A stretch of DNA of 64,000 bases, from sequence record PZ402305.1. One strand, 5' to 3'. Numbering within the stretch: the first letter of the stretch is position 1; every line of letters starts with the position of its first letter. The notes under the pieces are model-generated. The model saw only the letters and a list, made by a program, of their open reading frames with translations, did no database searches and was not told the DNA's origin. Position numbers and translations under genes: made by a program. This DNA comes from a phage. Positions 8,742 to 60,813 of this stretch are shown piece by piece.

Positions 8742-11339
8742 TCAGTGACAACTGGCCCAGGAATTCCCCACATCATATCCAGCAGTAAGCTGAACATTAA
8801 GATTGTAAAATTCTCCAGCCTTAGTAACAGCTAAGGCAGCAAGTTCACCTGCCCGACTATAGGCTGTAAACCATCCACCTTTGGGAGATTCATGAATGTT
8901 AGCCCAAATTTGTCCCGTCTCTTTTTCCTTATTATGCTTCCATTCTTCAACTTTAGCAAGGCATTCTTTATCAATTTTCTTTTGTTCTTCAGGATCGTCT
9001 ACTTTCTTCCAACCTAATGATTCAGGTGAAAACCATTTAAATTCTACAAGGTTACGAGAAACTTCAAGCTGGGCTTCATCGTGATATGCAATCATTTGTT
9101 GCACGAAGTCTTTATTCTTCCAGTCATCTTTAAAGAAGTCAACACTTAGTCCTTCTTCTTCGATCATGTCGTCATAAATAACCATTGCACGTTTAGCACA
9201 GATAACCCCACCACTTTGGAACAGAGAGTTAAGAATCGCGTGAGCAGAACGAGTAGGAACCTTACGACCGTCAATACCCAAAACATATTGTTTACCAGTC
9301 TTAACCCAGAAATCGTTTAAACGTTCTTTAAGACGCGCCAATGGGAATGCAGCTTCCCAGAAAGCATCAAACACTAATTGACCTGTAAACTTATCGCTAC
9401 CAATTGTTTTAGCAACCTTGTCGGCTTGTGCACCATAGGTAATACCATACTTAACAGCTTTAGCAGGACTACGTTCAAATTTACGTCCAATAGTTTCAGT
9501 GATACGTTTTGCCATCATTGTGTGAACATCGTTAGGTTTCTCTAACAACAGAGCGTTACAATATTCGTGTGGCTCCGGCTCGTACCGCCAACAGTAGTGT
9601 GATTCAATTTTTGCTTCCAAAGAGTCGAAGTCGTAGCCGATCTGGAAGTATTTAGGAACCTCTACACCAAACAAGTTACGCATCTCCCATCCAAACAAAG
9701 ATGTGACACGAGGAATATTAGCTACAGATCTATGCTTCATACGAGAGGTTGCAGCATCACATGTAGCGGCTGGGGTAGGAATACGCCCATCCGCCCTTAC
9801 TGCGGCTAAGAAACCTTTATCGTATTCTTGATCTTCTTCATCTTCTTCCCAATCAGCACCGCCACCTAAAATAGAGTTCCTACGATGCTTATACGTTAAG
9901 TATTCTACAATCTGTGTAGCATAAGGAAACTTCTCACCCAAAGCTTGCAGGTTAGGACAAATTTCTTTTTCCTGACCTTTGGTAAAACATGGGTTAGTCA
10001 ATACTTTAAGACCGCGACCTTTACCTTTTGCTATACGCTCTTGAATCTTCCTTTCCAGGGTTTCCGGTGTGCACTCCAGATGATCACAACGATCCTGACA
10101 AAAATTAGAAGATAGAGTTTGCTCAACGTAAGCTCGAATACCTTTCTGAAGTTCTTCCTCGCTCTTTTTAATCTTGGTGCCAGATTTAAGAGTCAAGTCT
10201 TTATCTTTATATTCAGACGGTACCCAACCTAATCCTACAAGCCAGTTTTTAATATGGGTTGTATCGTTCAATGTTGCAGGAATGTTAGGATCACATAGAG
10301 GTTCATCTGCTGCAACTGGCAGTTTCCACTCTTTCCCCAACATAACTAACCACCAATCGCCATCCCTCTCTTCCAAATGACCATCATGTTTCTTAGCAAA
10401 ATTGATCATATGGTTAGTTGGCTCTAAGTTCTTTTTAATTTGCAACTTAGGTGGAATAAAAGCCTTAAGATAACCTTTTGTTGCTGGTTTAGGTGGCAAA
10501 ATAGGCTCAACGAGTAAACGAAGACGCTCCATTTCTGCATCCAAAAAAGCAAGGTTCTCTTCTGCTTGTTTCATGTTAAAAGCAAACCCACGGTGCTCCT
10601 GGCGTGTAATAATGTCTGCTACACGTTGTTCAAGTTCAAATGGACCTTCCCATTTATCATAATCACCCCATTCTTCCATAAGGTAATTATATACGCTCGT
10701 ATTGGCTTTGTTGTCATAGATACAGTAATAAAGCATATCAGCAGCAAAAGTCTTAAATCGATCTTCTTCTGGAATCTCTTTACGGAAATCTATTTTTACA
10801 TCACCACCTGCCTTTCGAGAAAGTGCTGCCAAACTATGTCCTGATTTGCCCTCAATCTTTCGATCTGGGTTTAACACTTTACTCAAAATCAAGGAGTCAA
10901 TAAGTTTTACCTTATTTTTGCCCCACGTATTATATTTAACACTGTAATCTAATCCATAAAACAGTTTTGTAGCCAACCAGTCGTAGTTGATACCGTTGTG
11001 AGCCACAGCCATTTCAACCAGATATTCAGGCTTGTCTTTAAAATAACCTTCATGATTAATAAAATCTGGGAAATCTTTTAGTTGAAAATGTGTGTAATCT
11101 TGCGCCACATACTCTTTAAGAACATATGTGTATTTACCATCTGACTCTTCATAAGGACGCCCATCAAAGATGTATTTAGGGCCATCGTGGAAAGCTACTA
11201 TTTCTCCTGTTTCATGGTTCTCTAAGACAATACAGTGCATTTGAAATGTGTCTTTGAGACGATAAGGACTAGCTAAATAATCAATAGTGTCATTATTCAA
11301 CAATCCGTTTGCTTCAATATCCCATGTAAACTTACTCAC
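8742..11339 (-). CDS. DNA polymerase, family A (Pol I / T7 gp5-like) with 3'-5' exonuclease domain
   Basis: Exo I motif DIEANGL near N-terminus; motif A DFDSLEAKIESH; motif B RSPAKAVKYGITYG (R..AK...YG..YG). Confidence 0.9.
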   Translation of the reverse strand: MSKFTWDIEANGLLNNDTIDYLASPYRLKDTFQMHCIVLENHETGEIVAFHDGPKYIFDGRPYEESDGKYTYVLKEYVAQDYTHFQLKDFPDFINHEGYFKDKPEYLVEMAVAHNGINYDWLATKLFYGLDYSVKYNTWGKNKVKLIDSLILSKVLNPDRKIEGKSGHSLAALSRKAGGDVKIDFRKEIPEEDRFKTFAADMLYYCIYDNKANTSVYNYLMEEWGDYDKWEGPFELEQRVADIITRQEHRGFAFNMKQAEENLAFLDAEMERLRLLVEPILPPKPATKGYLKAFIPPKLQIKKNLEPTNHMINFAKKHDGHLEERDGDWWLVMLGKEWKLPVAADEPLCDPNIPATLNDTTHIKNWLVGLGWVPSEYKDKDLTLKSGTKIKKSEEELQKGIRAYVEQTLSSNFCQDRCDHLECTPETLERKIQERIAKGKGRGLKVLTNPCFTKGQEKEICPNLQALGEKFPYATQIVEYLTYKHRRNSILGGGADWEEDEEDQEYDKGFLAAVRADGRIPTPAATCDAATSRMKHRSVANIPRVTSLFGWEMRNLFGVEVPKYFQIGYDFDSLEAKIESHYCWRYEPEPHEYCNALLLEKPNDVHTMMAKRITETIGRKFERSPAKAVKYGITYGAQADKVAKTIGSDKFTGQLVFDAFWEAAFPLARLKERLNDFWVKTGKQYVLGIDGRKVPTRSAHAILNSLFQSGGVICAKRAMVIYDDMIEEEGLSVDFFKDDWKNKDFVQQMIAYHDEAQLEVSRNLVEFKWFSPESLGWKKVDDPEEQKKIDKECLAKVEEWKHNKEKETGQIWANIHESPKGGWFTAYSRAGELAALAVTKAGEFYNLNVQLTAGYDVGNSWASCH

Positions 11340-12666: not shown

Positions 12667-14445
12667 TTAATAGTTGCTATCCGTAGGCAAATTAGCAGGA
12701 TTGTTGAAATACTGCTCTTTGTCATGCAGAGTTGCAGTTCTAATGTCATAGTAAAACTGCCCTGCCGGACCAGTTTCCGAGAACTCACGGTTTTTTAGGA
12801 TAAAGCAATGAGTCGTATTGCGTTCTACAGGGTCTTCAGCGGCTTTATCTCGTTCCAAAGCCAAGGTAATACCAGCACCTTTAGCCAAGAAACTACTACC
12901 CATTGCATCGTCCTCTGTTAAGTGTTCATTGCCACCATTAGCCGACTTCTTAACGTGTGAGATGACGATAATGGTTATAGCATACTCTTTCATGATGCGC
13001 TTCAACCATGTTGCTAACTCTTCCTGGGCTTGAACATCCATACCAGAAAGCAAATCAGAATAAGGGTCGATAACAAGAATTGTTACTCCAAAATAGATGA
13101 TCATCTCCAAAACTTTTTCTTTGATAGACTCCACATCTGCTCCACGATCATCACACACATAAAAACGTGGTGATCCATCTTCTCTTTCGTAAAAATCTAG
13201 GATTTTTTCTTTATTCTCTTCCAAGATTTGAAATTTCTCTTCCGGTGTTTTCCTGTGTAGAGGAATATGCAGGAACGAGGACAACAGGTTACGAGAATAT
13301 TTCTTATAAGTTGCTTCCAAGGACAGAATACCTAGGGTATGTTCTGGGTGTGCAACAATAATATGTTTGGTGATCTCATTCACCATCAAAGTTTTACCGA
13401 TACTGGTCTTTGCCAGGATGACTGTAATCTCTTCCTCTACTAAACCACCACCCAGCATATTTGCAGCAACACGCATAAAAGGAGGCAAGGTAATCATCTT
13501 GGATTCCAAGCATTCTAATGCAGCTTCATACAAGACATTAGAAGCATAAACACCTGCTGGGGTGTATAGACGAGCACTCCAAAAAGCTTTTACGAAATCT
13601 TTTGCACGACCTTCTTCCAGATACTGATTGGCATCCTTAAGATCCATCTGCATACGGTAGACTTTGTTACGAGGCAGCACCTTAACAATATTTTCAAATG
13701 CCTCATTACCTGCTTTGTCATTATCCATGCAAACAATAATCTTCTTAAATTTTTCAAAGAAAGGATATTGTGCCTGAACTTGTTTATACATACTGGTTTC
13801 ACCAGTTGTGCCACTAACTACTGCTGGAAGTTCATATTTGTTGTCCAAGTTTTCAGACAGCATTTGATAAGCTGCCAGAGCATCGTGTTCACCACCTGTA
13901 ATTACCACAGTATGAGAACGGTCTGCAAAACGAATTTGTCCAAAAAGATCTACATCTTTACCTACTTGACCAATAGGTTTGCTGAAATCTTTAGGATGAA
14001 TACGACGCTTAAAACCAACCAACTCTTTACCGATAGTAGTTGGATATAAACAACTTTCTACTACCATCTGATCCCCTTCCTGACGGTATTCATAACGAAC
14101 ACCATAGAAAGATGAAACTTTTTCTTTAATGCCTCGATAACCACGTGGGTTGGTTGATGTTTCTTGAACAATTTTACGATGAATCTGTTTATTAAATTCC
14201 GAACCCACAATCTCCTCCTCTTCTTCTAAAACTTCACCATTTTCTCGTAACCATTCTACGCTAGGAATAGTGTATTCACACGCAAAGCACTTAGCACCCT
14301 TATGCTCTCCATTAGAATCTAATCCATAAACCATCAGGTTATTACGAGAGCGATCCTTGCCATTTTTCATGCAGCGCGGACAACCTGTATGCCCTTCCTT
14401 GCTAAGATCAACATCAAATCCATATTTAGTTATAATGTGCGACAC
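12667..14445 (-). CDS. bifunctional DNA primase/helicase (T7 gp4-like)
   Basis: N-terminal CxxC...CxxC zinc-binding segment (CPRCMKNG...CFACEY); C-terminal Walker A AKTSIGKT and Walker B-like VLVIDPYSDL. Confidence 0.75.
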   Translation of the reverse strand: MSHIITKYGFDVDLSKEGHTGCPRCMKNGKDRSRNNLMVYGLDSNGEHKGAKCFACEYTIPSVEWLRENGEVLEEEEEIVGSEFNKQIHRKIVQETSTNPRGYRGIKEKVSSFYGVRYEYRQEGDQMVVESCLYPTTIGKELVGFKRRIHPKDFSKPIGQVGKDVDLFGQIRFADRSHTVVITGGEHDALAAYQMLSENLDNKYELPAVVSGTTGETSMYKQVQAQYPFFEKFKKIIVCMDNDKAGNEAFENIVKVLPRNKVYRMQMDLKDANQYLEEGRAKDFVKAFWSARLYTPAGVYASNVLYEAALECLESKMITLPPFMRVAANMLGGGLVEEEITVILAKTSIGKTLMVNEITKHIIVAHPEHTLGILSLEATYKKYSRNLLSSFLHIPLHRKTPEEKFQILEENKEKILDFYEREDGSPRFYVCDDRGADVESIKEKVLEMIIYFGVTILVIDPYSDLLSGMDVQAQEELATWLKRIMKEYAITIIVISHVKKSANGGNEHLTEDDAMGSSFLAKGAGITLALERDKAAEDPVERNTTHCFILKNREFSETGPAGQFYYDIRTATLHDKEQYFNNPANLPTDSNY

Positions 14446-22314: not shown

Positions 22315-22509
22315 TTACTCCTCCTCATTGAAGTCAATATCTGCAAGGAGTTCGAATTTACGGAAGTTACGACAACCTTCATAAATATAACAATCACGAC
22401 AAACTGCTAGAACACTTGGGGGATATATGCCTCCCATCGGTGCGAATCGTTTTTCGTCATCATAACGGACACCAATGTCTTCATCAATTATATAGATACG
22501 GATTCTCAT
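22315..22509 (-). CDS. hypothetical protein
   Basis: 64 aa ORF, stop overlaps TelA-like start. Confidence 0.4.
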   Translation of the reverse strand: MRIRIYIIDEDIGVRYDDEKRFAPMGGIYPPSVLAVCRDCYIYEGCRNFRKFELLADIDFNEEE

Positions 22510-23618
22510 TTACCAAGCCCTCGTTTCACAGCAGCTACCATCCCGTCTTCCAGAGATTGAACTTCATTAATATAATCAACACGAGCAGCACGGGCTTCCG
22601 TATTGATGCGGTTAGTTTCTTCCAGCATCTTAACCAAGTTTTCCTGATCGTGACGCAGAGTTTCAATATCCAACACTTGACGGTTAGCCAGTGCTGCTGC
22701 TTCGATCTGATTCTGTGTGGCAAGATCGCTACCCAGTTTAATTGCCAGGTTAAATTCATCAAGAACGTTATTCTGCGTCTCTGCTGCTTTCATTTGACGT
22801 AAGCTCTCGATATACATTGAGAAGTTAGCAGAGTAAGCAGGAATAACATTATTTACTATGTTACGCGCAGATCGCATTAAGCTTGCAGAAACTTTTTGCA
22901 TACCTTGTACACGCGGTCCCATTTGGACACACAGTAGGCGCAATGCTTTTAAATCTGCAATACGAATCTCCAGAAGATCCAAAGTATCTCGGATCACTTG
23001 TCGCTGTTCTACTGCATCTTCTGGAAGAGCAGCCAAAGCTTGTTCTTCTTTTTCATAGGTTGCTGTTAGAAGCTGCATATCTCGGTTCAAACTTGCAGCA
23101 TATTGTCCAATAGCTTGATGTAGCTTTTCAAGATATACCAAGGAATCTTCTTCTTTGCGAATATCCATTTGAAGGTTCTTTACCAACTCTTCAATACGGT
23201 TATTAACATTATCAAACTCCCCAAACAGGTCTTCTTTCATACCCATAACTTTTTTAATGAGTTTAGTAATACCCTTGCTTTGTTTAATAGAGTTTGGATC
23301 AAGTTGTTTTGCCTGTTTAATCAAAGCTGTGAGTCGTTCACTCATCTGATCGCCTTGATTACTACGTTGATGTTTTAATACCTCGGCATTCAAGGAACGC
23401 AAGGTTGTTCCTGCCTCTGCCCCAATCTCTTCGATCTCTTGTCGGGTCATAGAAGGCAAAACTGGAACTTCTTGCGGTGCCGCTGGTGCATAAACAGGAC
23501 TGGCATCTAACACGCTTGGAGCGAATACAGATTTACTTGCATCTGTTGTTGCAGCAAATACGCTCATTTCAGGCTTCTTCTGACCACCAGTAGCTGCTTT
23601 TAAAAATGGACTTGTCAT
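22506..23618 (-). CDS. telA: TelA-like (toxic anion resistance) protein
   Basis: 370 aa, long predicted coiled-coil/helical protein of TelA-like size in neighbourhood of terC and terD; assignment by context and composition, no diagnostic motif verified. Confidence 0.45.
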   Translation of the reverse strand: MTSPFLKAATGGQKKPEMSVFAATTDASKSVFAPSVLDASPVYAPAAPQEVPVLPSMTRQEIEEIGAEAGTTLRSLNAEVLKHQRSNQGDQMSERLTALIKQAKQLDPNSIKQSKGITKLIKKVMGMKEDLFGEFDNVNNRIEELVKNLQMDIRKEEDSLVYLEKLHQAIGQYAASLNRDMQLLTATYEKEEQALAALPEDAVEQRQVIRDTLDLLEIRIADLKALRLLCVQMGPRVQGMQKVSASLMRSARNIVNNVIPAYSANFSMYIESLRQMKAAETQNNVLDEFNLAIKLGSDLATQNQIEAAALANRQVLDIETLRHDQENLVKMLEETNRINTEARAARVDYINEVQSLEDGMVAAVKRGLGK

Positions 23619-25830: not shown

Positions 25831-26805
25831 TTAAACAGCAGCTTCTTCTTTTTCAGGGAAGATAAAGCTTGCAATAACACCAAGAGCTAATGTGCCTAGA
25901 ACAATCATCAGACTTACGTTAGGGGAAATATCATGCGGGAGGAATGACCACTTGGCATGAAGTGTTTCACCGAACGGGTGATACATAAGTTTAGCACCGA
26001 CAAATACCAGAACCACAGCAACAGCTTTCTCTAAGTGAACCAGATATTTCACAGCCACACTTAACACAAAGAAAAGTGCACGTAAACCAAGAACAGCCAT
26101 CAGCATTGCAGAATAAACTAGCAGAGGTTCTTGTGTCACACCGATCACAGCCGGAACTGAATCAAAAGAGAAGACAATATCTGTAAGCTCAATAACAAAC
26201 ACACAAAGAAGAGCAGGAGTTGCATATTTAATACCATTCTTAATGGTGATGAACTTTTCACCATCCAGTGCATTGTGCACAGGCAGAACTTTACCTACTA
26301 AACGAACAGCCCAATGCTTAGAGTAATCAATATCCTCTTCTTCGTCACCACCTTTGATGATAGCCACGGCAGACCAAGCTACAATCAAACCGAACAACAC
26401 TTGGACCGACCAATGAAGGTTAAACAAAGCGGTCCCTGCTGCAACAAAAATACCTCGGAAGACAATGGCTCCTGCAATTCCCCAAAGTAAAATCTTATGT
26501 TGGAGATGTGTGCTCTTAATTCCAAAGCTTGCAAAAATTGCCATGAACACCATCAGGTTATCTACAGAAAGACTCTTTTCCAACACATAGCCACTTAGGA
26601 AAAGCGCGGCAAACTCTTTACCATGTTCTACCCAAATGAATGCGTAATATCCTAAAGCTAAAGCAATCCAAAAAACAGACCAAAGCAAAGCAGATTTAAT
26701 TCCAATTTCTTTATTCTCTTTATGACCAAAGAAATCAATACCAATAGACAATGCTAAAATACCAACTAAAACAACTACATCAATAATGGGGAAACCAAGT
26801 TGCAT
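25831..26805 (-). CDS. terC: TerC-family integral membrane protein
   Basis: 324 aa multi-pass membrane protein; YVLEKSLSVDNLMVF segment typical of TerC/Alx family. Confidence 0.75.
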   Translation of the reverse strand: MQLGFPIIDVVVLVGILALSIGIDFFGHKENKEIGIKSALLWSVFWIALALGYYAFIWVEHGKEFAALFLSGYVLEKSLSVDNLMVFMAIFASFGIKSTHLQHKILLWGIAGAIVFRGIFVAAGTALFNLHWSVQVLFGLIVAWSAVAIIKGGDEEEDIDYSKHWAVRLVGKVLPVHNALDGEKFITIKNGIKYATPALLCVFVIELTDIVFSFDSVPAVIGVTQEPLLVYSAMLMAVLGLRALFFVLSVAVKYLVHLEKAVAVVLVFVGAKLMYHPFGETLHAKWSFLPHDISPNVSLMIVLGTLALGVIASFIFPEKEEAAV

Positions 26806-43902: not shown

Positions 43903-44259
43903 ATGAAAAAATTAATCTTAGCCACATTGCTGGCTACCGTAAGCTTCACCACTTACGCTCAAAAATTTGTAGCAGTTAAAACAGATATTGGTAAAGATGT
44001 TGTGATCACAGGCAACAAGTTTTACTATACACCTGGAAATGGTGTTCTAGAAGAGTGTAAAGATGTTGAGGCATATACAGGAAAAGAAGATAACACGGAA
44101 CGTCCTTTTTATTCGATTATAGCCACTTGCAAAAATGAAATAGTAGCTATTAAACAGTATAAAGATGCCCCTGGAGGAGAATACTTATTAGTCAAGAATA
44201 TTAAGAGTGAAAAAACTGCAAAGTTTACAGTAATTATTTTAAAAGGAGAAACGTTCTAA
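43903..44259 (+). CDS. secreted hypothetical protein
   Basis: ATG at 43903 after RBS taggaggg; signal peptide MKKLILATLLATVSFTTYAQ. Confidence 0.5.
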   Translation: MKKLILATLLATVSFTTYAQKFVAVKTDIGKDVVITGNKFYYTPGNGVLEECKDVEAYTGKEDNTERPFYSIIATCKNEIVAIKQYKDAPGGEYLLVKNIKSEKTAKFTVIILKGETF

Positions 44260-45398
44260 TGAAATACACTATTTTTGGAGATGTGGCTGTTGTAAATAAG
44301 GAATATGGTGTTGAAGCTAATAAACTTCCTGCTGGAGTTTGGGTTGTCAACTGCGATCCGCACGGTAACTACTCTTTAGTGCGTGGCGAAAGTTTCTCTC
44401 TTCCGAACACTCTTTATGGGGAAACTAAAGACCGCGCCGCACATGTTATTAAAACATTTGCTCGTCGTAGTAAAGAAGGTAAAAATACTGGGGTGTTACT
44501 GACAGGCACAAAAGGCAGTGGTAAGACGATGTTAGCTAAACTAATTAGCATGTCCCTAATGTCCACAGAAGGTTTAGGTATTCCAACCATTTTGGTTACA
44601 CAGCCTTACACAGATGCTGGCTTCTTAGAATTTATGAGTAAAATTACAGATCGTGCTGTTGTTTTATTTGACGAATTTGATAAAGTGTACGCTAAGAAAG
44701 AAGATCAGGAAGCACTGTTGACCTTGTTGGATGGAACAGGAAGTGGGAATAAACTTTACATCCTAACTAAAAATAGTGGTTATATCTCGGAATATTTTGT
44801 AAACCGTCCTAGTCGTATCTATTACAGTTTCAATTACGATAAACTGTCTAGTGAAACTATGTTAGATTACTTGGATAAGAACTTGGTAAATAAAAAACAC
44901 GTAGATAACTTCCAACGTTTATGGGATGTTAGCACAGAGTTGTCTTTCGATGTTATTCAAGGTATTGTAGAAGAATTGAATTTCTATCCAAAAATGACTT
45001 TTAAAGAATGTCTTGAAATGATGGGTATTTCTTTAGGCAACGATGCTAAATGGAATGTGGCTTCTATCGTAGCTAATGGCAAAACGCTGAAGGTGAATTG
45101 GATCAATAACTGGCACGACTTCACCCCTACTAAGTTTTTGTCGGGTGCTTGTTCCCTGAACATCTATCTACAAAGTTTGAAAGATGATGAAGTGGAAGCA
45201 ATGGAAACCAACAGTTATGTTATCCTGGATGAAGATGGTGATCCACATATTGATCTATGTGCAACGGCTGATGGTCTAACTTGTGATCTGATTGAAGGTG
45301 GTAAGATTCTGGTTATGAGCACTACACCAGGAAACACTCTGCGAGTGGTGCTGGAGCCTGTAACACAACGTTCCACTACCCTGGGTAGCGTATTCTGA
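44259..45398 (+). CDS. AAA-family ATPase
   Basis: Walker A GTKGSGKT and Walker B VVLFDEFD. Confidence 0.6.
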   Translation: MKYTIFGDVAVVNKEYGVEANKLPAGVWVVNCDPHGNYSLVRGESFSLPNTLYGETKDRAAHVIKTFARRSKEGKNTGVLLTGTKGSGKTMLAKLISMSLMSTEGLGIPTILVTQPYTDAGFLEFMSKITDRAVVLFDEFDKVYAKKEDQEALLTLLDGTGSGNKLYILTKNSGYISEYFVNRPSRIYYSFNYDKLSSETMLDYLDKNLVNKKHVDNFQRLWDVSTELSFDVIQGIVEELNFYPKMTFKECLEMMGISLGNDAKWNVASIVANGKTLKVNWINNWHDFTPTKFLSGACSLNIYLQSLKDDEVEAMETNSYVILDEDGDPHIDLCATADGLTCDLIEGGKILVMSTTPGNTLRVVLEPVTQRSTTLGSVF

Positions 45399-45467: not shown

Positions 45468-46466
45468 TTGTTAGATATGCCAGTAAAGAAGAGTATTGAA
45501 CAATATATTGAAGAGTGTCAACCTATTGCTGCTGCTAAAGGGATTGAGATTATTGGAATTGTTGAGCCGTTTACAGGACAACACACGAAAATGATCAATC
45601 GTTGTCAGTATGCTCATGAATGGAACACTACAACATTTAAAAACTTTAAAACTGGTCGTGCTGGTTGTCCTGTCTGTGCAATTGGGAAAGGATTTGGGAA
45701 AGGAGGTAAGACAGACGATCAGCACATAAAAGATTTCATTAACACAGGAAAGTTTAAACCTGGTACCATTTTCACCAATACAGGCAAACGTAAAGGGAGT
45801 CATATTCTCTGGATGGTTGAATGTCCTGTTTGTTCTCATGATGAATACGTACAAGCAGGAGTGTGTGATGGTAAATTTTACATTGCAGGGAACGATCTTA
45901 AAAAAGGGATTATCCCTTGTCGTTGTACTAGAGTTTACCGTTATACAAAAGATCAGATCACTTACAAGGTGAGAAAAGGTTTAGAAAGTAAAGGATATAT
46001 CTGGATAGAGTGGATTAGTAAACCTTCCTCAACAGGAGAGTTTAAATATGGATGTAAGGATCACGGGGAGCAAATAGGGAATGCTGACCACTTATTACAT
46101 AAGGGGCGTGGTTGTCCGAAGTGTAAAGGGCATACACAACAACAGGCATACATCAACTATATCTACGATGAACAAAATCTTCTCTGTGCTTTGAAGTTTG
46201 GTATTGCCAATAGTAGTGATCGCCGTATCAAAGAACAAAATAGTCATAATGTGTTTACTATGAAACAGAGCCAAGTGTGGCACTTCCCTACTGTGAAGCA
46301 ATGCAAAGATGCAGAAAAGCGTTGTAAGCGTGTCCTTCACACGGAAGCAGTGAGCAAATATTCTATGCCAGATGGCTACACAGAAACAGTAGAGTTATCT
46401 TGCATGGCCTCAATACAAAACATTTATAAACTTTATGGTGGAACATTACAGGAGGAAACATGTTAG
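45468..46466 (+). CDS. Cys-rich (multi zinc-ribbon) hypothetical protein
   Basis: Repeated CxxC pairs (CPVCA, CPVCS, CPKCKGH); start either TTG 45468 or ATG 45477. Confidence 0.5.
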   Translation: MLDMPVKKSIEQYIEECQPIAAAKGIEIIGIVEPFTGQHTKMINRCQYAHEWNTTTFKNFKTGRAGCPVCAIGKGFGKGGKTDDQHIKDFINTGKFKPGTIFTNTGKRKGSHILWMVECPVCSHDEYVQAGVCDGKFYIAGNDLKKGIIPCRCTRVYRYTKDQITYKVRKGLESKGYIWIEWISKPSSTGEFKYGCKDHGEQIGNADHLLHKGRGCPKCKGHTQQQAYINYIYDEQNLLCALKFGIANSSDRRIKEQNSHNVFTMKQSQVWHFPTVKQCKDAEKRCKRVLHTEAVSKYSMPDGYTETVELSCMASIQNIYKLYGGTLQEETC

Positions 46467-47557: not shown

Positions 47558-47613
47558 TATTTTAACTTTTTTCATTTTTAGAACAAAGGTGTCACTTTGT
47601 AGCACAGAAATAA

Positions 47614-47652
47614 GGCTCCTACAACACTGTAGAGAGCCTATTATTTTGTCCT
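47614..47652 (+). terminator. imperfect hairpin with T-rich tail after NADAR gene
   Basis: ggctcctacaacactgtagagagcc followed by tattattttgtc. Confidence 0.4.
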
Positions 47653-47800
47653 ATACAAACACTTATCTTTTTCAGTTTGCATCATTAGGATTCGATCTAG
47701 GTGGGTTCCTGAAGGTCTGCCAATAAGATTAAAGGTTATCTCAAATTACCCCTACTTGTTATCTCAAAAATTCCTCAAATTATTTAAACTTTTTAAGAAT

Positions 47801-47986
47801 TTACAAAAGTGAAAGTTGAAAACCAAAATTTAAAGTTTAGGAAAATTATCTTAAAATGTTAGATACAAAACAAAACTCAAAAGTCAAGGAAAATTTTAAA
47901 AATTTTGCGCGCCCACAGTATTTAAAGTTTTTTTGCTTTTACAAAAATGAAAGTACAAAAGCAAAATTTAAAGTTTACAAAAATTT
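47801..47986. repeat. two ~47 bp direct repeats (iteron-like) in AT-rich non-coding region
   Basis: ttacaaaagtgaaagttgaaaaccaaaatttaaagtttaggaaaatt (47801-47847) vs ttttacaaaaatgaaagtacaaaagcaaaatttaaagtttacaaaaattt (47939-47986). Confidence 0.6.
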
Positions 47987-48024
47987 ATGCAGATGGGAAT
48001 GAGAAGAGTTCTCATATGGAAATG

Positions 48025-48046
48025 CAAATGATAATGATTCGCATTT
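48025..48046. promoter_or_regulatory. Fur-box-like near-palindrome A
   Basis: caAATGATAATGATTCGCATTt; resembles GATAATGATAATCATTATC. Confidence 0.35.
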
Positions 48047-48083
48047 AGGTTTATAAATGAGATTGATTCTTATTCGATAAGGT

Positions 48084-48104
48084 AAATGATAATCATTCTC
48101 ATTT
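48084..48104. promoter_or_regulatory. Fur-box-like near-palindrome B
   Basis: AAATGATAATCATTCTCATTT; one mismatch to core TGATAATCATTATC; 21-bp quasi-palindrome. Confidence 0.4.
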
Positions 48105-48362
48105 AGAGAATGACGCGCAGGGGCGGTGTTTGTCTCGCGTTCCCGTGTCCCCTCGCCATGTAATAAGAATAACAGATCCAGCCAGGAAAGCAAGCGATTA
48201 TTTCATCTTTACATTTCTTTACAAATATATAGCGCCCAGCCTACCGGCGATCAACCTTCCAACCAGTGCCCCTGGTATGTTAGCCCCGCCTTTACGCCGT
48301 GGGGTGGCGCTTCCTCTTCTGTATGTAAAACAGTATAAGCCCGATCCCTGGGCTTGTCAAGA

Positions 48363-48629
48363 TTATTTTTTGTTTTCTTGCCAGGATAGGACACCTAACC
48401 AAAAATACATATCGCCCCGCGCCCCTGGCGGGATCTTGCTTTCCCCGCCGCCACTGCAAGCCCATAGATAACCATTTGCGAACGTATCAAAATGATCTAT
48501 CTCTTCCACCTTATGATCGCCCAGGTTGAGAACGGTTTCAACCTTTAAGCCCGTTGCGCTTGCTACCTGGTGCACCGTGCCGCCTTGCCAGCCCAATGAG
48601 TGCATAAGGTGTAATGTAGTAGTTGTCAT
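48363..48629 (-). CDS. hypothetical protein in GC-rich island
   Basis: 88 aa ORF with RBS-like aaagggcg upstream; distinct GC-rich codon usage; followed on minus strand by TTGACA-17-TATACT promoter at ~48318-48346. Confidence 0.3.
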   Translation of the reverse strand: MTTTTLHLMHSLGWQGGTVHQVASATGLKVETVLNLGDHKVEEIDHFDTFANGYLWACSGGGESKIPPGARGDMYFWLGVLSWQENKK

Positions 48630-48737
48630 GGTATCGCCCTTTCTTTGTTGTGCGCCCTGGTTGGCGCGGTAGAAAGATGATAGCCCTTTCCTTTATATAT
48701 AGCAAGCAAAAAGAAAATAAAAAGATTGAAAAAGTGG

Positions 48738-48797
48738 TTGACGTTCGCCAGGTGGCGGCATAATATTTACCACGTAGGGCGGCAATGGTGCCGCTCA
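48738..48797 (+). promoter_or_regulatory. early promoter P1 + 5' stem-loop
   Basis: TTGACG-17-TAATAT-ttac-CACGTAGGGCGGCAATGGTGCCGCTCA; stem GCGGCA/TGCCGC. Confidence 0.7.
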
Positions 48798-59200: not shown

Positions 59201-60273
59201 GCCCGAATAATGTTGATAGATTCCGCCTATGGAAAACCGACACAGAACAAAACTGAATAAATAGCGGTATCGAGCTAATCAACCATTAAACGAATAACCA
59301 TACCTCCCAGGGTAACAGGCTGTTAGAGAGCCATTTAGAGCGGTTAAAATCGATCAACAACCAACAAAAAACCATCAAAAACACCCTTTTACCTCCTTTC
59401 TAGTGCAATGATAACCATTATCATCTATCCATGTTTATCTATGCAATATAAGTGCATAACTATAATGTTGATAATAGTTCGCAACAACTAACTAACCAAC
59501 AACCTAAAACAATAAGCAAACTAATCATAATCAAAGGAATAATAGCAAGATGATTGATAACGACAAACAATCAAACCATGATGAATACTAAGCAAGATAA
59601 CGATAACACGACAAAACAACCAACTAACGAACAATAACAAACGAAACCATTAAAATAATAACTATTAGCAAAATAGTGCCTGAATGAAATCATTACAAAA
59701 CGAATCATTCACAGGATCATCATTAGCACGCTATGCCGGACACATAGCGAGCTAATAATAAGCCAACTACACCCCAACAATCATAACCATCGGTGATGGT
59801 TATTTCTTGTTACTGCGTAGCTTGCAATAATTGCAAGCGTAATACGCTTACACTTATTGCGCTGGCTTATTATTAGCATTATATGTAATTACCAAGATCA
59901 TAACATTAGCGCAATAACAATAATCATTGTGGTAATTACAAGATGAAATAATCGCTATCGCTCAAAGATCATTAGCAAGATGAATAATTGCACGTAGCAA
60001 CATGAGCGAATAGCGACAGGTTGCATAGTGTGCACATAGATGTACACGTAGTGTATAAACATACAGGAAAATAAAGGCTAATCTTTTGGGGGCGAATACT
60101 ATCGCGTAGCGATATGTTGAGCACTAAGAGAAGAGATAAACCTTAATCATGGGGGCGTAAATATCCGCAGGATTGCCAACGGCGATCCGGTAGGATGTTG
60201 AGCATCTTCTCTTAAACGTAAATAAAATCAGAAAATTCTTGATTTATTTTAGTTTTTATGTTAATAAACGTTT

Positions 60274-60295
60274 AAATAATAATCATTCTCATATG
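60274..60295. promoter_or_regulatory. Fur-box-like near-palindrome C
   Basis: AAATAATAATCATTCTCATATG; shares ATAATCATTCTCAT core with box B at 48084. Confidence 0.35.
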
Positions 60296-60452
60296 AATAA
60301 TAGTCTGCTTGTCATGAGCGGGATCAGTTGACAATGTTCCGTCATATGATGAAGTTGCCAAACCATTGATAAATAAGTGTTTGTGTGATTTATAATCAAG
60401 TGGCCCACCTTGTCGCTATGTTGGCATGAGCCTTGCATAAGTCATTGAATAC

Positions 60453-60478
60453 GAATGATAATTATTCTCATTCGCATG
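60453..60478. promoter_or_regulatory. Fur-box-like near-palindrome D
   Basis: GAATGATAATTATTCTCATTCGCATG; shares GATAAT..ATTCGCAT with box A at 48025. Confidence 0.35.
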
Positions 60479-60813
60479 ATATTTGAGAATTGTCGCTGCG
60501 TGGACCTGACGGCCCGAAAATTCGCGTTAAGCACTTCTTACGTATGCGCCATGATTTTTGCCATATGATATTGATTCTATTAGATATTCTTGCCATGATT
60601 GCCATGAAACAGGGTGTCCCGAAATAATCTCTCCCCGTAGATATTTTGGGTTACTTTTTATACAAGAGTGGGGTGTCAAAAATAATCGGTATATATGGGA
60701 TAATTGATAGGAATCCCCTATGATAATTCGATTGTAATTCCCTGAGATTGATCGTATGATGTTGGTGATTGATGATTGCCATGAAAGATGGCTAACAATG
60801 AGAGGAGATTATC

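What the first reader, a model, noticed from the sequence alone, without database searches (positions are those of the whole stretch)
47560..48000. Iteron-like direct repeats in the AT-rich gap before the early block
Two ~47 bp direct repeats of about 80% identity (47801-47847 and 47939-47986) and shorter repeated ctcaaa(a)tta units lie in an A/T-rich non-coding stretch between the last middle gene and the Fur-like boxes. This resembles iteron arrays at phage or plasmid origins, or phased protein-binding sites.
Basis: seen in the sequence. Interest (0 to 1): 0.45.

Follow-up and report, generated by a model that had tools for sequence, protein, structure and literature searches.

The report
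Conserved AT-rich repeat array, probable origin
The repeats are real and belong to a roughly 1.2-kb non-coding control region conserved in a large group of E. coli, Salmonella and Klebsiella myoviruses; it is most likely a protein-binding and DNA-unwinding site, possibly the phage replication origin, but its function has not been shown.

Summary
The window is a Phapecoctavirus (phAPEC8-like myovirus). A 67-72-nt direct repeat (47776-47847 and 47914-47985, 82-84% identical, 138 bp apart) scores about 17 sd above composition-matched simulations. It is unique in the window and in related genomes. It is better conserved (81-82%) than its spacers (54-62%) in a divergent relative.

The same layout recurs in the nine genera of Stephanstirmvirinae and Vequintavirinae examined:
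- the end of a rightward operon;
- three AT-rich units of about 63-84 bp (here two intact and one decayed), with first-to-third distance 138-148 bp;
- one to five Fur-box-like palindromes;
- a GC-rich element with leftward sigma-70-like promoters and a covarying hairpin;
- the early genes.

The repeat zone is the least stable duplex in the 64 kb. It is 12 kb from the physical genome end, so it is not a packaging site. It fails the membership tests for classical iterons: unit size, DnaA/IHF sites and a neighbouring initiator gene are all wrong or absent.

Best guess (about 0.35): a transcription-activated origin of the T7/T4 type. Rivals are a purely transcriptional control region, a T5-like injection-stop signal, and a repetitive non-coding RNA. 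I found no description of the region in the searchable literature. Function remains untested.

The parts
47614..47648 (+). Intrinsic terminator hairpin (GGCTCCTACA-ACAC-TGTAGAGAGCC plus a T-rich tail) that closes the rightward NADAR operon. The other strand also has a T-rich tail, so it may stop leftward transcripts too.
   Evidence: Sequence. The equivalent site is annotated as an ARNold terminator in phAPEC8. It is 82% conserved in phiWec179.
47737..47768 (+). Two TATCTCAAA boxes (47737-47745 and 47760-47768), 23 bp apart. A third, TATCTTAAA, lies at 47847-47855.
   Evidence: The boxes are invariant in phiWec179 while the sequence between them diverges. The same 9-mer occurs three times left of the repeats in Klebsiella phage KPP-1, and twice in reverse orientation in UPEC06. 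A predicted intrinsic bend is centred near 47769.
47776..47847 (+). Repeat copy 1, with box A (TATTTAAACTTTTT), TTTACAAAAGTGAAAGT and AAAACCAAAATTTAAAGTTTA.
   Evidence: It is 81% identical to phiWec179, against 54-62% for the flanks.
47848..47913 (+). Spacer holding a decayed middle unit; 47864-47896 is 73% identical to the second halves of copies 1 and 2.
   Evidence: family D4. Justusliebigvirus EmilieFrey has an intact middle unit here, giving three copies at 67 and 75 bp spacing. The spacer is 62% conserved.
47914..47985 (+). Repeat copy 2, with box A (TATTTAAAGTTTTT), TTTACAAAAATGAAAGT and AAAAGCAAAATTTAAAGTTTA.
   Evidence: It is 82% identical to phiWec179. Both copies carry the same lineage-specific change, AAAATTT to AAATTCT, in phiWec179 and PsgM04F.
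47998..48103 (.). Four Fur-box-like 19-bp palindromes at exactly 29-bp spacing (47998, 48027, 48056, 48085). The last matches the E. coli Fur consensus at 16 of 19 positions.
   Evidence: Seven matches to the derived pattern occur in the window against 0.35 expected. One to five such boxes occupy the same position in every genus examined.
48107..48330 (-). Conserved GC-rich non-coding element. It contains a weak leftward promoter-like site P_L2 (48166-48193), CTTTACA twice 10 bp apart (48207-48223), and a hairpin at 48246-48290 with a variable tip.
   Evidence: It is conserved at 72-82% DNA identity across Vequintavirinae and at 93-95% within Stephanstirmvirinae. Alignment of 10 genomes. One hairpin pair covaries, A-U to G-C in 3 sequences. 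Indels break any reading frame. There is no Rfam hit.
48332..48360 (-). Near-consensus leftward sigma-70-like promoter P_L1 (TTGACA-17-TATACT), aimed at the GC-rich element, the Fur boxes and the repeats. Its spacer doubles as the terminator-like hairpin of the 88-aa gene.
   Evidence: 11 of 12 consensus matches. Equivalent hexamers are present in all 10 aligned genomes.
48363..48629 (-). Leftward 88-aa gene of unknown function.
   Evidence: phrog_19316. 21 homologues down to 47% identity with conserved length. The model is confident and all-helical (pLDDT 94), with no significant fold match.
48738..48766 (+). First rightward early promoter (TTGACG-17-TAATAT), marking the right edge of the non-coding region.
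   Evidence: phAPEC8 annotation of promoters and small early genes downstream.

Best explanation
The repeats are the AT-rich, protein-binding and unwinding part of a composite cis-acting region. I think that region is most likely the phage's replication origin, of the 'promoter plus downstream unwinding element' kind used by T7 (tandem promoters followed by an AT-rich stretch) and by T4 oriF/oriG.

Shown here:
- The repeat array is non-coding, statistically real and unique in the genome.
- It is conserved in position, in copy number (three, or two plus a remnant) and in overall span (138-148 bp) across two phage subfamilies.
- It is the least stable duplex in the 64 kb and lies next to a predicted bend.
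- One or two sigma-70-type promoters in the adjoining GC-rich element point into it, with no protein-coding target downstream.
- The phage encodes a family A DNA polymerase and a T7 gp4-type primase-helicase, and no recognisable origin-binding initiator lies nearby.

Inferred:
- Host RNA polymerase transcribes leftward from P_L1/P_L2 through the Fur-like operators into the repeats.
- Transcription, with an unidentified protein bound to the conserved boxes (TATCTCAAA, box A TATTTAAAsTTTTT, TTTACAAAA-TGAAAGT), opens the AT-rich DNA.
- The RNA or the displaced strand then lets the primase-helicase and polymerase load.
- The Fur-like boxes between promoter and repeats could gate this.
For: - Repeat significance.
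- Uniqueness.
- Selective conservation of the copies over their spacers, and the same substitution in both copies.
- Equivalent three-unit arrays in EmilieFrey, SSE121, CR9, KPP-1, Av-05, UPEC06 and pEp_SNUABM_01.
- Lowest nearest-neighbour duplex stability of the whole window at 200-300 bp scale (z 3.4-3.6).
- Predicted bend at about 47769.
- Leftward promoters conserved in 10 genomes.
- No conserved ORF downstream of those promoters.
- The leftward RNA is modestly G-rich in 7 of 10 genomes.
- PolA and a Toprim+DnaB_C primase-helicase are encoded in the window.
- The physical end (329-bp terminal repeat of Schickermooser) maps to 60201-60529, 12 kb away.
- A natural deletion in ETEC-TG removes P_L1, half the hairpin and the 88-aa gene but keeps the repeats, the Fur boxes and P_L2.
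Against: - There is no functional data of any kind.
- Promoters are consensus matches only, and P_L2 is weak in this phage (7 of 12).
- The promoters lie 120-330 bp from the repeats, with the Fur-like array in between.
- Unit length and spacing do not resemble any characterised origin repeat.
- No binding protein is identified. The neighbouring 88-aa protein has no DNA-binding fold match, and the nearby AAA+ ATPase is generic.
- GC skew is uninformative because flanking genes are co-directional.
- Fur boxes are not a known feature of any origin.
- The G-skew of the leftward RNA is weak and absent in 3 of 10 genomes.
Confidence: 0.35

Rival explanations
1. A purely transcriptional control region. 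The repeats would be upstream or downstream binding sites for a phage or host regulator. That regulator, with Fur, would set the activity of the promoters in the GC-rich element (leftward P_L1/P_L2 and a possible rightward Fur-overlapped promoter), or insulate the early block from the preceding operon. There would be no role in replication.
For: - Conserved boxes and a predicted bend are typical of upstream activating regions.
- Fur-like operators lie at 29-bp spacing immediately alongside.
- In Vequintavirinae the last Fur box sits between TTGAAT and CAGAAT/CTGAAT hexamers 18 bp apart, as in Fur-repressed promoters (sequences).
- The region lies at the boundary between two transcription blocks.
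Against: - The repeats do not contain conserved sigma-70 hexamers on either strand when the genera are compared (my reading).
- No conserved protein-coding target exists for the leftward promoters.
- Three units spread over about 140 bp, located 100-300 bp from the nearest candidate promoter, is unusually elaborate for a single small promoter.
- In this phage the -35 of the putative rightward Fur promoter is poor.
Confidence: 0.25
2. A DNA-entry pause or injection-stop signal like the T5 iss region: a cis-acting repeat-rich non-coding block marking the end of the genome segment that enters first and carries the early genes.
For: - The repeats lie 12.6 kb, or 8.3% of a 151-kb genome, from the right terminal repeat.
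- Everything between the repeats and that end is small early-type genes with their own promoters.
- The T5 iss lies at 7.9% of the genome, in a 1.2-1.7-kb untranslated region with 66-bp direct repeats and host-protein (DnaA) boxes. It is conserved while neighbouring ORFs are not (bioRxiv 10.1101/866236).
- Further Fur-like boxes lie inside the terminal repeat.
Against: - There is no evidence that these phages inject in two steps, or which end enters first.
- The terminal repeat is 329 bp, not about 10 kb.
- There are no DnaA boxes.
- No large A1-like protein is encoded in the early block; all its ORFs are under 190 aa.
- Vequintavirinae with the same module are described as circularly permuted (PMC3606486, PMC3475682), which would make a fixed entry boundary meaningless.
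Confidence: 0.1
3. The repeats function as RNA. A leftward non-coding transcript from P_L1/P_L2 to the 47614-47648 hairpin would carry a structured GC-rich 5' domain and an AU-rich repeated 3' domain, acting as a decoy or sponge (compare the repetitive ToxI/pseudo-ToxI antitoxin RNAs).
For: - Leftward promoters with no ORF downstream.
- A covarying hairpin with a G-U pair that fits only the leftward strand.
- The terminator hairpin has a T-rich tail on both strands.
- Relatives of this phage group are known to evolve repetitive decoy RNAs (phiTE pseudo-ToxI, PMC3475682).
Against: - The phiTE pseudo-ToxI locus is at 106.7 kb, not in this region.
- The repeat sequence differs completely between subfamilies while the layout is kept. 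That fits a DNA-geometry role better than a specific RNA target.
- There is no Rfam match.
- The AU-rich repeats have little folding potential.
- Copy number is invariant across about 60 close genomes, unlike expandable decoy arrays.
Confidence: 0.1
4. A packaging (pac or terminase-recognition) site, or a genome terminus.
For: - Terminase small-subunit sites are often direct repeats in bent AT-rich DNA (general knowledge: lambda cosB, SPP1 pacL).
- The Vequintavirinae units are GATC-rich, like P1 pac.
- A few database records start in or near this region.
Against: - The 329-bp terminal repeat of the close relative Schickermooser maps to 60201-60529 (PMC6563267), 12 kb away.
- The records that start here are circular or arbitrarily opened, or are broken in the repeats by assembly.
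Confidence: 0.03

Closest known systems
T7 primary origin and T4 oriF/oriG (transcription-activated phage origins: promoter(s) followed by an AT-rich unwinding element)
   Same: - Tandem promoters point into the most AT-rich, least stable DNA of the region.
- No dedicated initiator gene is evident.
- The phage has a T7-type PolA plus a gp4-like primase-helicase.
- The location is intergenic, between transcription blocks.
   Different: - The promoters are host sigma-70 type and lie 120-330 bp from the AT-rich repeats, not directly next to them.
- The AT-rich part is organised as three long conserved units with several sequence boxes. That implies a sequence-specific binder, which T7 and T4 origins do not need.
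- Fur-like operators are interposed.
- Nothing has been mapped experimentally.
Iteron origins (lambda ori; P1 oriR; plasmids F, R6K, RK2, pSC101; P4 ori/crr)
   Same: Direct repeats beside an AT-rich, easily melted stretch; non-coding; a single locus per genome. P4 crr also uses long (120-bp) direct repeats that carry shorter binding motifs.
   Different: - Units are 46 or 63-84 bp, not 17-22 bp at about 22-bp spacing.
- This phage has only two intact copies.
- There are no DnaA or IHF sites.
- No Rep/O/alpha-type initiator gene is adjacent or overlapping.
T5 injection-stop (iss) repeat region
   Same: - A non-coding block of more than 1 kb with about 66-70-bp direct repeats and boxes for a host DNA-binding protein.
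- It is conserved far better than neighbouring genes.
- It lies about 8% from a genome end, at the inner edge of the earliest-expressed genes.
   Different: - It is not inside a long terminal repeat.
- The host-protein boxes are Fur-like, not DnaA.
- There are no large inverted repeats and no A1/A2-type genes.
- Two-step injection is unknown in this group.
Fur-regulated promoter regions of enterobacteria
   Same: The adjoining array (47998-48103) matches the Fur consensus at up to 16 of 19 positions and is tandemly arranged, as at strongly Fur-repressed promoters.
   Different: The finding itself, the AT-rich repeats, has no Fur-box similarity. A lytic-phage setting with no iron-related gene downstream is unusual. 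Fur binding is untested.

Membership tests
Classical iteron origin (lambda/P1/plasmid type) | Three or more direct repeats of about 17-22 bp, spaced about two helical turns apart | tested here: not met
   Two intact copies of 67-72 nt lie 138 bp apart, with a 46-bp internal sub-period. Relatives have three units at 63-84 bp. Tandem Repeats Finder finds no array.
Classical iteron origin (lambda/P1/plasmid type) | Adjacent AT-rich DNA-unwinding element | tested here: met
   47706-48022 is the least stable 200-300-bp duplex of the 64-kb window (z 3.4-3.6, GC 0.24-0.26).
Classical iteron origin (lambda/P1/plasmid type) | Cognate initiator (Rep/O-type) gene next to or around the iterons | tested here: not met
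   The neighbours are a NADAR protein, an 88-aa protein with no fold match, a CapR/endonuclease-like protein and a generic AAA+ ATPase. A novel initiator cannot be excluded.
Classical iteron origin (lambda/P1/plasmid type) | Host DnaA boxes and/or IHF sites | tested here: not met
   There is no TTWTNCACA or WATCAANNNNTTR in the repeat region of the 8 genomes scanned. One DnaA-box match each in KPP-1 and phiTE lies in the GC-rich element.
Classical iteron origin (lambda/P1/plasmid type) | Autonomous or phage-dependent origin activity | not testable with these tools
   This needs cloning, marker-frequency analysis or 2D gels.
Transcription-activated phage origin (T7 primary origin, T4 oriF/oriG) | Promoter(s) directing transcription into the unwinding element | tested here: inconclusive
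   P_L1 (TTGACA-17-TATACT, 11 of 12) and the weaker P_L2 point leftward at the repeats and are conserved in 10 genomes. These are consensus matches only, and the promoters lie 120-330 bp from the repeats.
Transcription-activated phage origin (T7 primary origin, T4 oriF/oriG) | AT-rich element downstream of the promoter, with no coding target | tested here: met
Transcription-activated phage origin (T7 primary origin, T4 oriF/oriG) | Replisome that can use such an origin (PolA plus gp4-type primase-helicase) | tested here: met
   DNA_pol_A at 8742-11339(-); Toprim_2 plus DnaB_C at 12667-14445(-).
Transcription-activated phage origin (T7 primary origin, T4 oriF/oriG) | Persistent RNA-DNA hybrid or primer RNA (G-rich transcript) | tested here: inconclusive
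   The G-C skew of the leftward RNA is +0.12 to +0.22 in 7 genomes and about 0 in 3.
T5-type injection-stop region | Repeat-rich non-coding block, conserved more than its flanking genes, at the inner edge of the first-entering ~8% of a genome with fixed ends | tested here: inconclusive
   Conservation and the 8.3% distance from the right terminal repeat fit. The direction and mode of DNA entry are unknown.
T5-type injection-stop region | Location within a long terminal repeat, with paired DnaA boxes | tested here: not met
   The terminal repeat is 329 bp and lies 12 kb away. There are no DnaA boxes.
Repetitive antitoxin-mimic RNA (ToxI/pseudo-ToxI) | Tandem units of about 34-36 nt similar to a type III antitoxin, and the same locus as the phiTE escape locus | tested here: not met
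   The unit size differs. The phiTE escape locus is at 106,714-106,772 bp, whereas the homologous region of phiTE is at about 39-40 kb.
Packaging site / genome terminus | Coincidence with the physical ends of virion DNA | tested here: not met
   The Schickermooser terminal repeat maps to window 60201-60529.

The most novel reading that the evidence does not exclude
A replication origin of a new design shared by all rV5-like and phAPEC8-like myoviruses. Three ~70-bp protein-binding units spanning about 140 bp would be opened by host-RNA-polymerase transcription that must first pass an array of Fur operators. A strictly lytic phage would then tie the start of its DNA replication, or the entry of its DNA, to the iron status of the host.
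Probability: 0.12. Interest if true: 0.8.

Novelty: new variant of a known kind. Interest (0 to 1): 0.5.

Why it matters
rV5-like, PVP-SE1-like and phAPEC8-like phages are among the broadest-host-range coliphages and are widely used in therapy cocktails. Their origin of replication and early regulatory circuitry are unknown; the rV5 genome paper looked for an origin by skew analysis and found only changes tied to transcription direction (PMC3606486).

This analysis defines one compact, conserved non-coding module that can be tested directly as the origin or the master control region. The module comprises the repeats, the Fur-like operators, the promoters and the hairpin.

It also gives engineers a region that should not be disrupted. 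If Fur really binds there, it would be a rare case of a lytic phage reading host iron status.

Tried and rejected
- Packaging site or terminus: rejected. The Schickermooser 329-bp terminal repeat maps to 60201-60529.
- attL/attR features at the ends of Salmonella phage R7: these are an 80-bp overlap inside the repeat/Fur zone. I read them as an assembly break, not as termini.
- phiTE pseudo-ToxI locus: it lies elsewhere in that genome.
- General phage promoter motif: box A and the long motifs occur only at this locus.
- Sigma-70 promoters inside the repeats: weak matches are not conserved between genera.
- Hidden small gene: the 48-aa ORF at 47856-48002 is not conserved.
- Known RNA family: no Rfam hit better than E 0.49.
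- Host or plasmid origin of the sequence: no match in E. coli genomes or plasmids.
- DnaA, IHF and Fis sites: absent, or at background frequency.
- The AAA+ ATPase (44259-45398) as an initiator: only generic AAA hits.
- Unit-by-unit orthology in Vequintavirinae: the signal is too weak to claim (0.72 versus 0.69).
- ICP1 mapped origin as a comparator: its region has no similar layout and the phage is too distant.
- Literature searches for a description of this region found nothing.

Full report
**Identity of the window.** The 1.8 kb around the finding matches more than 100 phage genomes of the genus Phapecoctavirus (subfamily Stephanstirmvirinae; phAPEC8-like myoviruses of about 150 kb) at 95-99% identity. 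The closest is vB_EcoM-P3322. In annotated relatives the finding lies in a gap of about 1.2 kb that carries no conserved rightward gene. To its left is a rightward operon ending in a 180-aa gene. To its right is a long run of small rightward early-type genes, each with its own promoter. The 180-aa protein is a NADAR/YbiA-like enzyme. The window also encodes a family A DNA polymerase and a T7 gp4-type primase-helicase.

**The observation.** The repeat is real and longer than reported: 72 nt at 82% identity, 47776-47847 and 47914-47985, 138 bp apart. An ungapped self-comparison of 47651-48000 gives 56/67 matches. Its score is 39.5, against 10.9 +/- 1.7 in 300 composition-matched simulations, none of which reached it.

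Each copy contains an internal half-repeat. TTTAAAsTTT occurs at 47783, 47829, 47921 and 47967, a 46-bp sub-period. A decayed unit lies between the copies (47864-47896).

The long motifs occur nowhere else in the 64 kb, and related genomes match at one place only. The single ORF crossing the region is not conserved. The intrinsic terminator of the NADAR operon lies at 47614-47648.

**Conservation.** The divergent relatives phiWec179 and PsgM04F are about 79% identical across the matching 218-230 bp of the region. Against phiWec179, the two copies are 81-82% identical while the spacer between them is 62% and the stretch after the terminator 54%. The TATCTCAAA boxes are invariant there although the sequence between them changes. 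Both copies carry the same substitution, AAAATTT to AAATTCT, in that lineage. This indicates either gene conversion or co-evolution with a binding protein.

**The same layout recurs far beyond the genus.**
- Justusliebigvirus EmilieFrey has three copies at 67 and 75 bp spacing. They share box A (TATTTAAAGTTTTT) and an AAAATGAAA(A)GT box with the window's copies. The window therefore has two intact units and one remnant.
- In Vequintavirinae the homologous gap also holds three AT-rich units: SSE121 75/67 bp, CR9 78/63, KPP-1 74/67, Av-05 75/67, UPEC06 84/64, pEp_SNUABM_01 74/71. Their sequence is different (GGTTCTCGATCG or ACTTGAGRGG, then TTTTC..., then GAAAAAATTTTT).
- The distance from the first to the third unit is 138-148 bp in all nine genera examined.
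- TATCTCAAA recurs three times in KPP-1 and twice, inverted, in UPEC06. The Vequintavirinae unit heads contain a related TCTCRA core.
- Positional orthology of units in Vequintavirinae is too weak to claim.

**What lies beside the repeats.**
- Immediately to the right are four Fur-box-like 19-bp palindromes at exact 29-bp spacing (47998-48103). The best matches the E. coli Fur consensus at 16 of 19 positions. One to five such boxes occupy the same place in every genus.
- Next comes a GC-rich element (48107-48330) with no E. coli or Rfam match. It is conserved at 72-82% DNA identity across Vequintavirinae and at 93-95% within Stephanstirmvirinae, although the neighbouring NADAR protein is only 59% identical.
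- A ten-genome alignment of this element shows several features. There is a near-consensus leftward promoter, P_L1 (48360-48332, TTGACA-17-TATACT). A second leftward promoter-like site, P_L2 (48193-48166), is strong in Vequintavirinae and weak here. CTTTACA occurs twice, 10 bp apart. A hairpin at 48246-48290 has a tip of variable length and one covarying pair. Indels rule out a protein.
- Next is a real leftward 88-aa gene. Its confident helical model has no significant structural match.
- The first early promoter follows at 48738.
- One relative, ETEC-TG, lacks 48277-48651 (P_L1, half the hairpin and the 88-aa gene) but keeps the repeats, the Fur boxes and P_L2.

**Physical properties.** By nearest-neighbour free energy, 47706-48022 is the least stable 200-300-bp stretch of the 64 kb (z 3.4-3.6). 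At 100 bp, only the start of the terminal repeat is less stable. A wedge-model calculation, with parameters recalled from memory and therefore approximate, predicts a strong intrinsic bend centred near 47769, the fourth strongest in the window. It predicts none over the rest of the array. Copies 1 and 2 are 13.1 helical turns apart and so face the same side. The 46-bp half-units do not.

**Where the genome ends are.** Korf et al. reported a 328-bp terminal repeat for phage Schickermooser (PMC6563267). The record's two ends share 329 bp, which map to window 60201-60529. The finding is therefore 12.2-12.6 kb, or 8.3% of the genome, from the right end, and is not a terminus or packaging site.

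**Interpretation.** The data show a conserved, unique, non-coding, easily melted array with several sequence boxes. Conserved promoters point into it, and those promoters have no coding target. The phage has a T7-like replisome and no recognisable initiator.

The closest working model is a transcription-activated origin, as at the T7 primary origin or T4 oriF/oriG, with added sequence-specific binding sites. I give this about 0.35.

It is not a member of the classical iteron class. Unit size and spacing, DnaA/IHF sites and a neighbouring initiator gene were all tested and not met.

The alternatives are:
- a purely transcriptional control region (0.25);
- a T5-iss-like entry-pause signal (0.10), suggested by the 8% position and by the parallel with the T5 untranslated repeat region;
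- a repetitive non-coding RNA (0.10);
- a packaging site (0.03).

The remainder of the probability is for something not yet thought of.

**Novelty.** Searches of the available literature found no description of this region in rV5-, PVP-SE1-, phi92- or phAPEC8-like phages. The rV5 paper's skew analysis did not locate an origin. The kind of element, AT-rich repeats at a probable origin or control region, is familiar. The particular architecture and its association with Fur-like operators are not.

Noticed in passing
window 47998-48103: Four Fur-box-like palindromes lie at exactly 29-bp spacing, the best matching the consensus at 16 of 19 positions. One to five such boxes are conserved at the same position in phages of Escherichia, Salmonella, Klebsiella, Cronobacter, Pectobacterium and Erwinia.
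   Followed up: partly
window 59407-59425, 60275-60293, 60454-60472: Three more Fur-like 19-mers lie in a second non-coding block of about 1.4 kb. Two of them are inside the sequence that is the terminal repeat in phage Schickermooser. A strong predicted bend is centred near 59366.
   Followed up: no
window 60201-60529: This is the equivalent of the 329-bp direct terminal repeat of phage Schickermooser, that is, the probable physical genome ends. Its first 100 bp are the least stable DNA in the window.
   Followed up: partly
window 48107-48330 (minus strand): This GC-rich non-coding element is conserved at the DNA level across two phage subfamilies. It is much better conserved than the adjacent genes. 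It has a hairpin at 48246-48290 with a variable tip, one covarying pair and an invariant G-U pair that fits the leftward strand. It is a candidate new structured RNA or single-strand DNA signal, with no Rfam match.
   Followed up: partly
window 48207-48223: CTTTACA occurs twice, 10 bp apart, and the pair is nearly invariant in most of the ten genomes aligned. The same TTTACAA core also occurs inside each AT-rich repeat copy (47800, 47938, 47973).
   Followed up: no
window 48363-48629 (minus strand): This 88-aa protein family (phrog_19316) has a confident all-helical model but no significant fold match. In Seunavirus, Mydovirus and Certrevirus an unrelated 60-63-aa leftward ORF takes its place.
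   Followed up: partly
L003 (Escherichia phage ETEC-TG) versus window 48277-48651: This relative has a natural 375-bp deletion that removes the strong leftward promoter, half the conserved hairpin and the 88-aa gene. If the assembly is correct, those parts are dispensable.
   Followed up: partly
L016 (Pectobacterium phage phiTE) 980-1260: phiTE carries seven or more copies of a GGGTCTCG(ATC) box, not three tidy units, followed by four Fur-like boxes. This is an expanded variant of the same module.
   Followed up: no
window 45468-46466 and 44259-45398: Just upstream of the finding lie a CapR-homology-domain protein with endonuclease-like (T5orf172/GIY-YIG-type) features and a generic AAA+ ATPase. 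Neither has a known role.
   Followed up: partly
window 22506-23618 and 25831-26805 (minus strand): The phage's minus-strand gene block encodes TelA-like and TerC-family proteins, which are tellurite-resistance-type membrane proteins.
   Followed up: no
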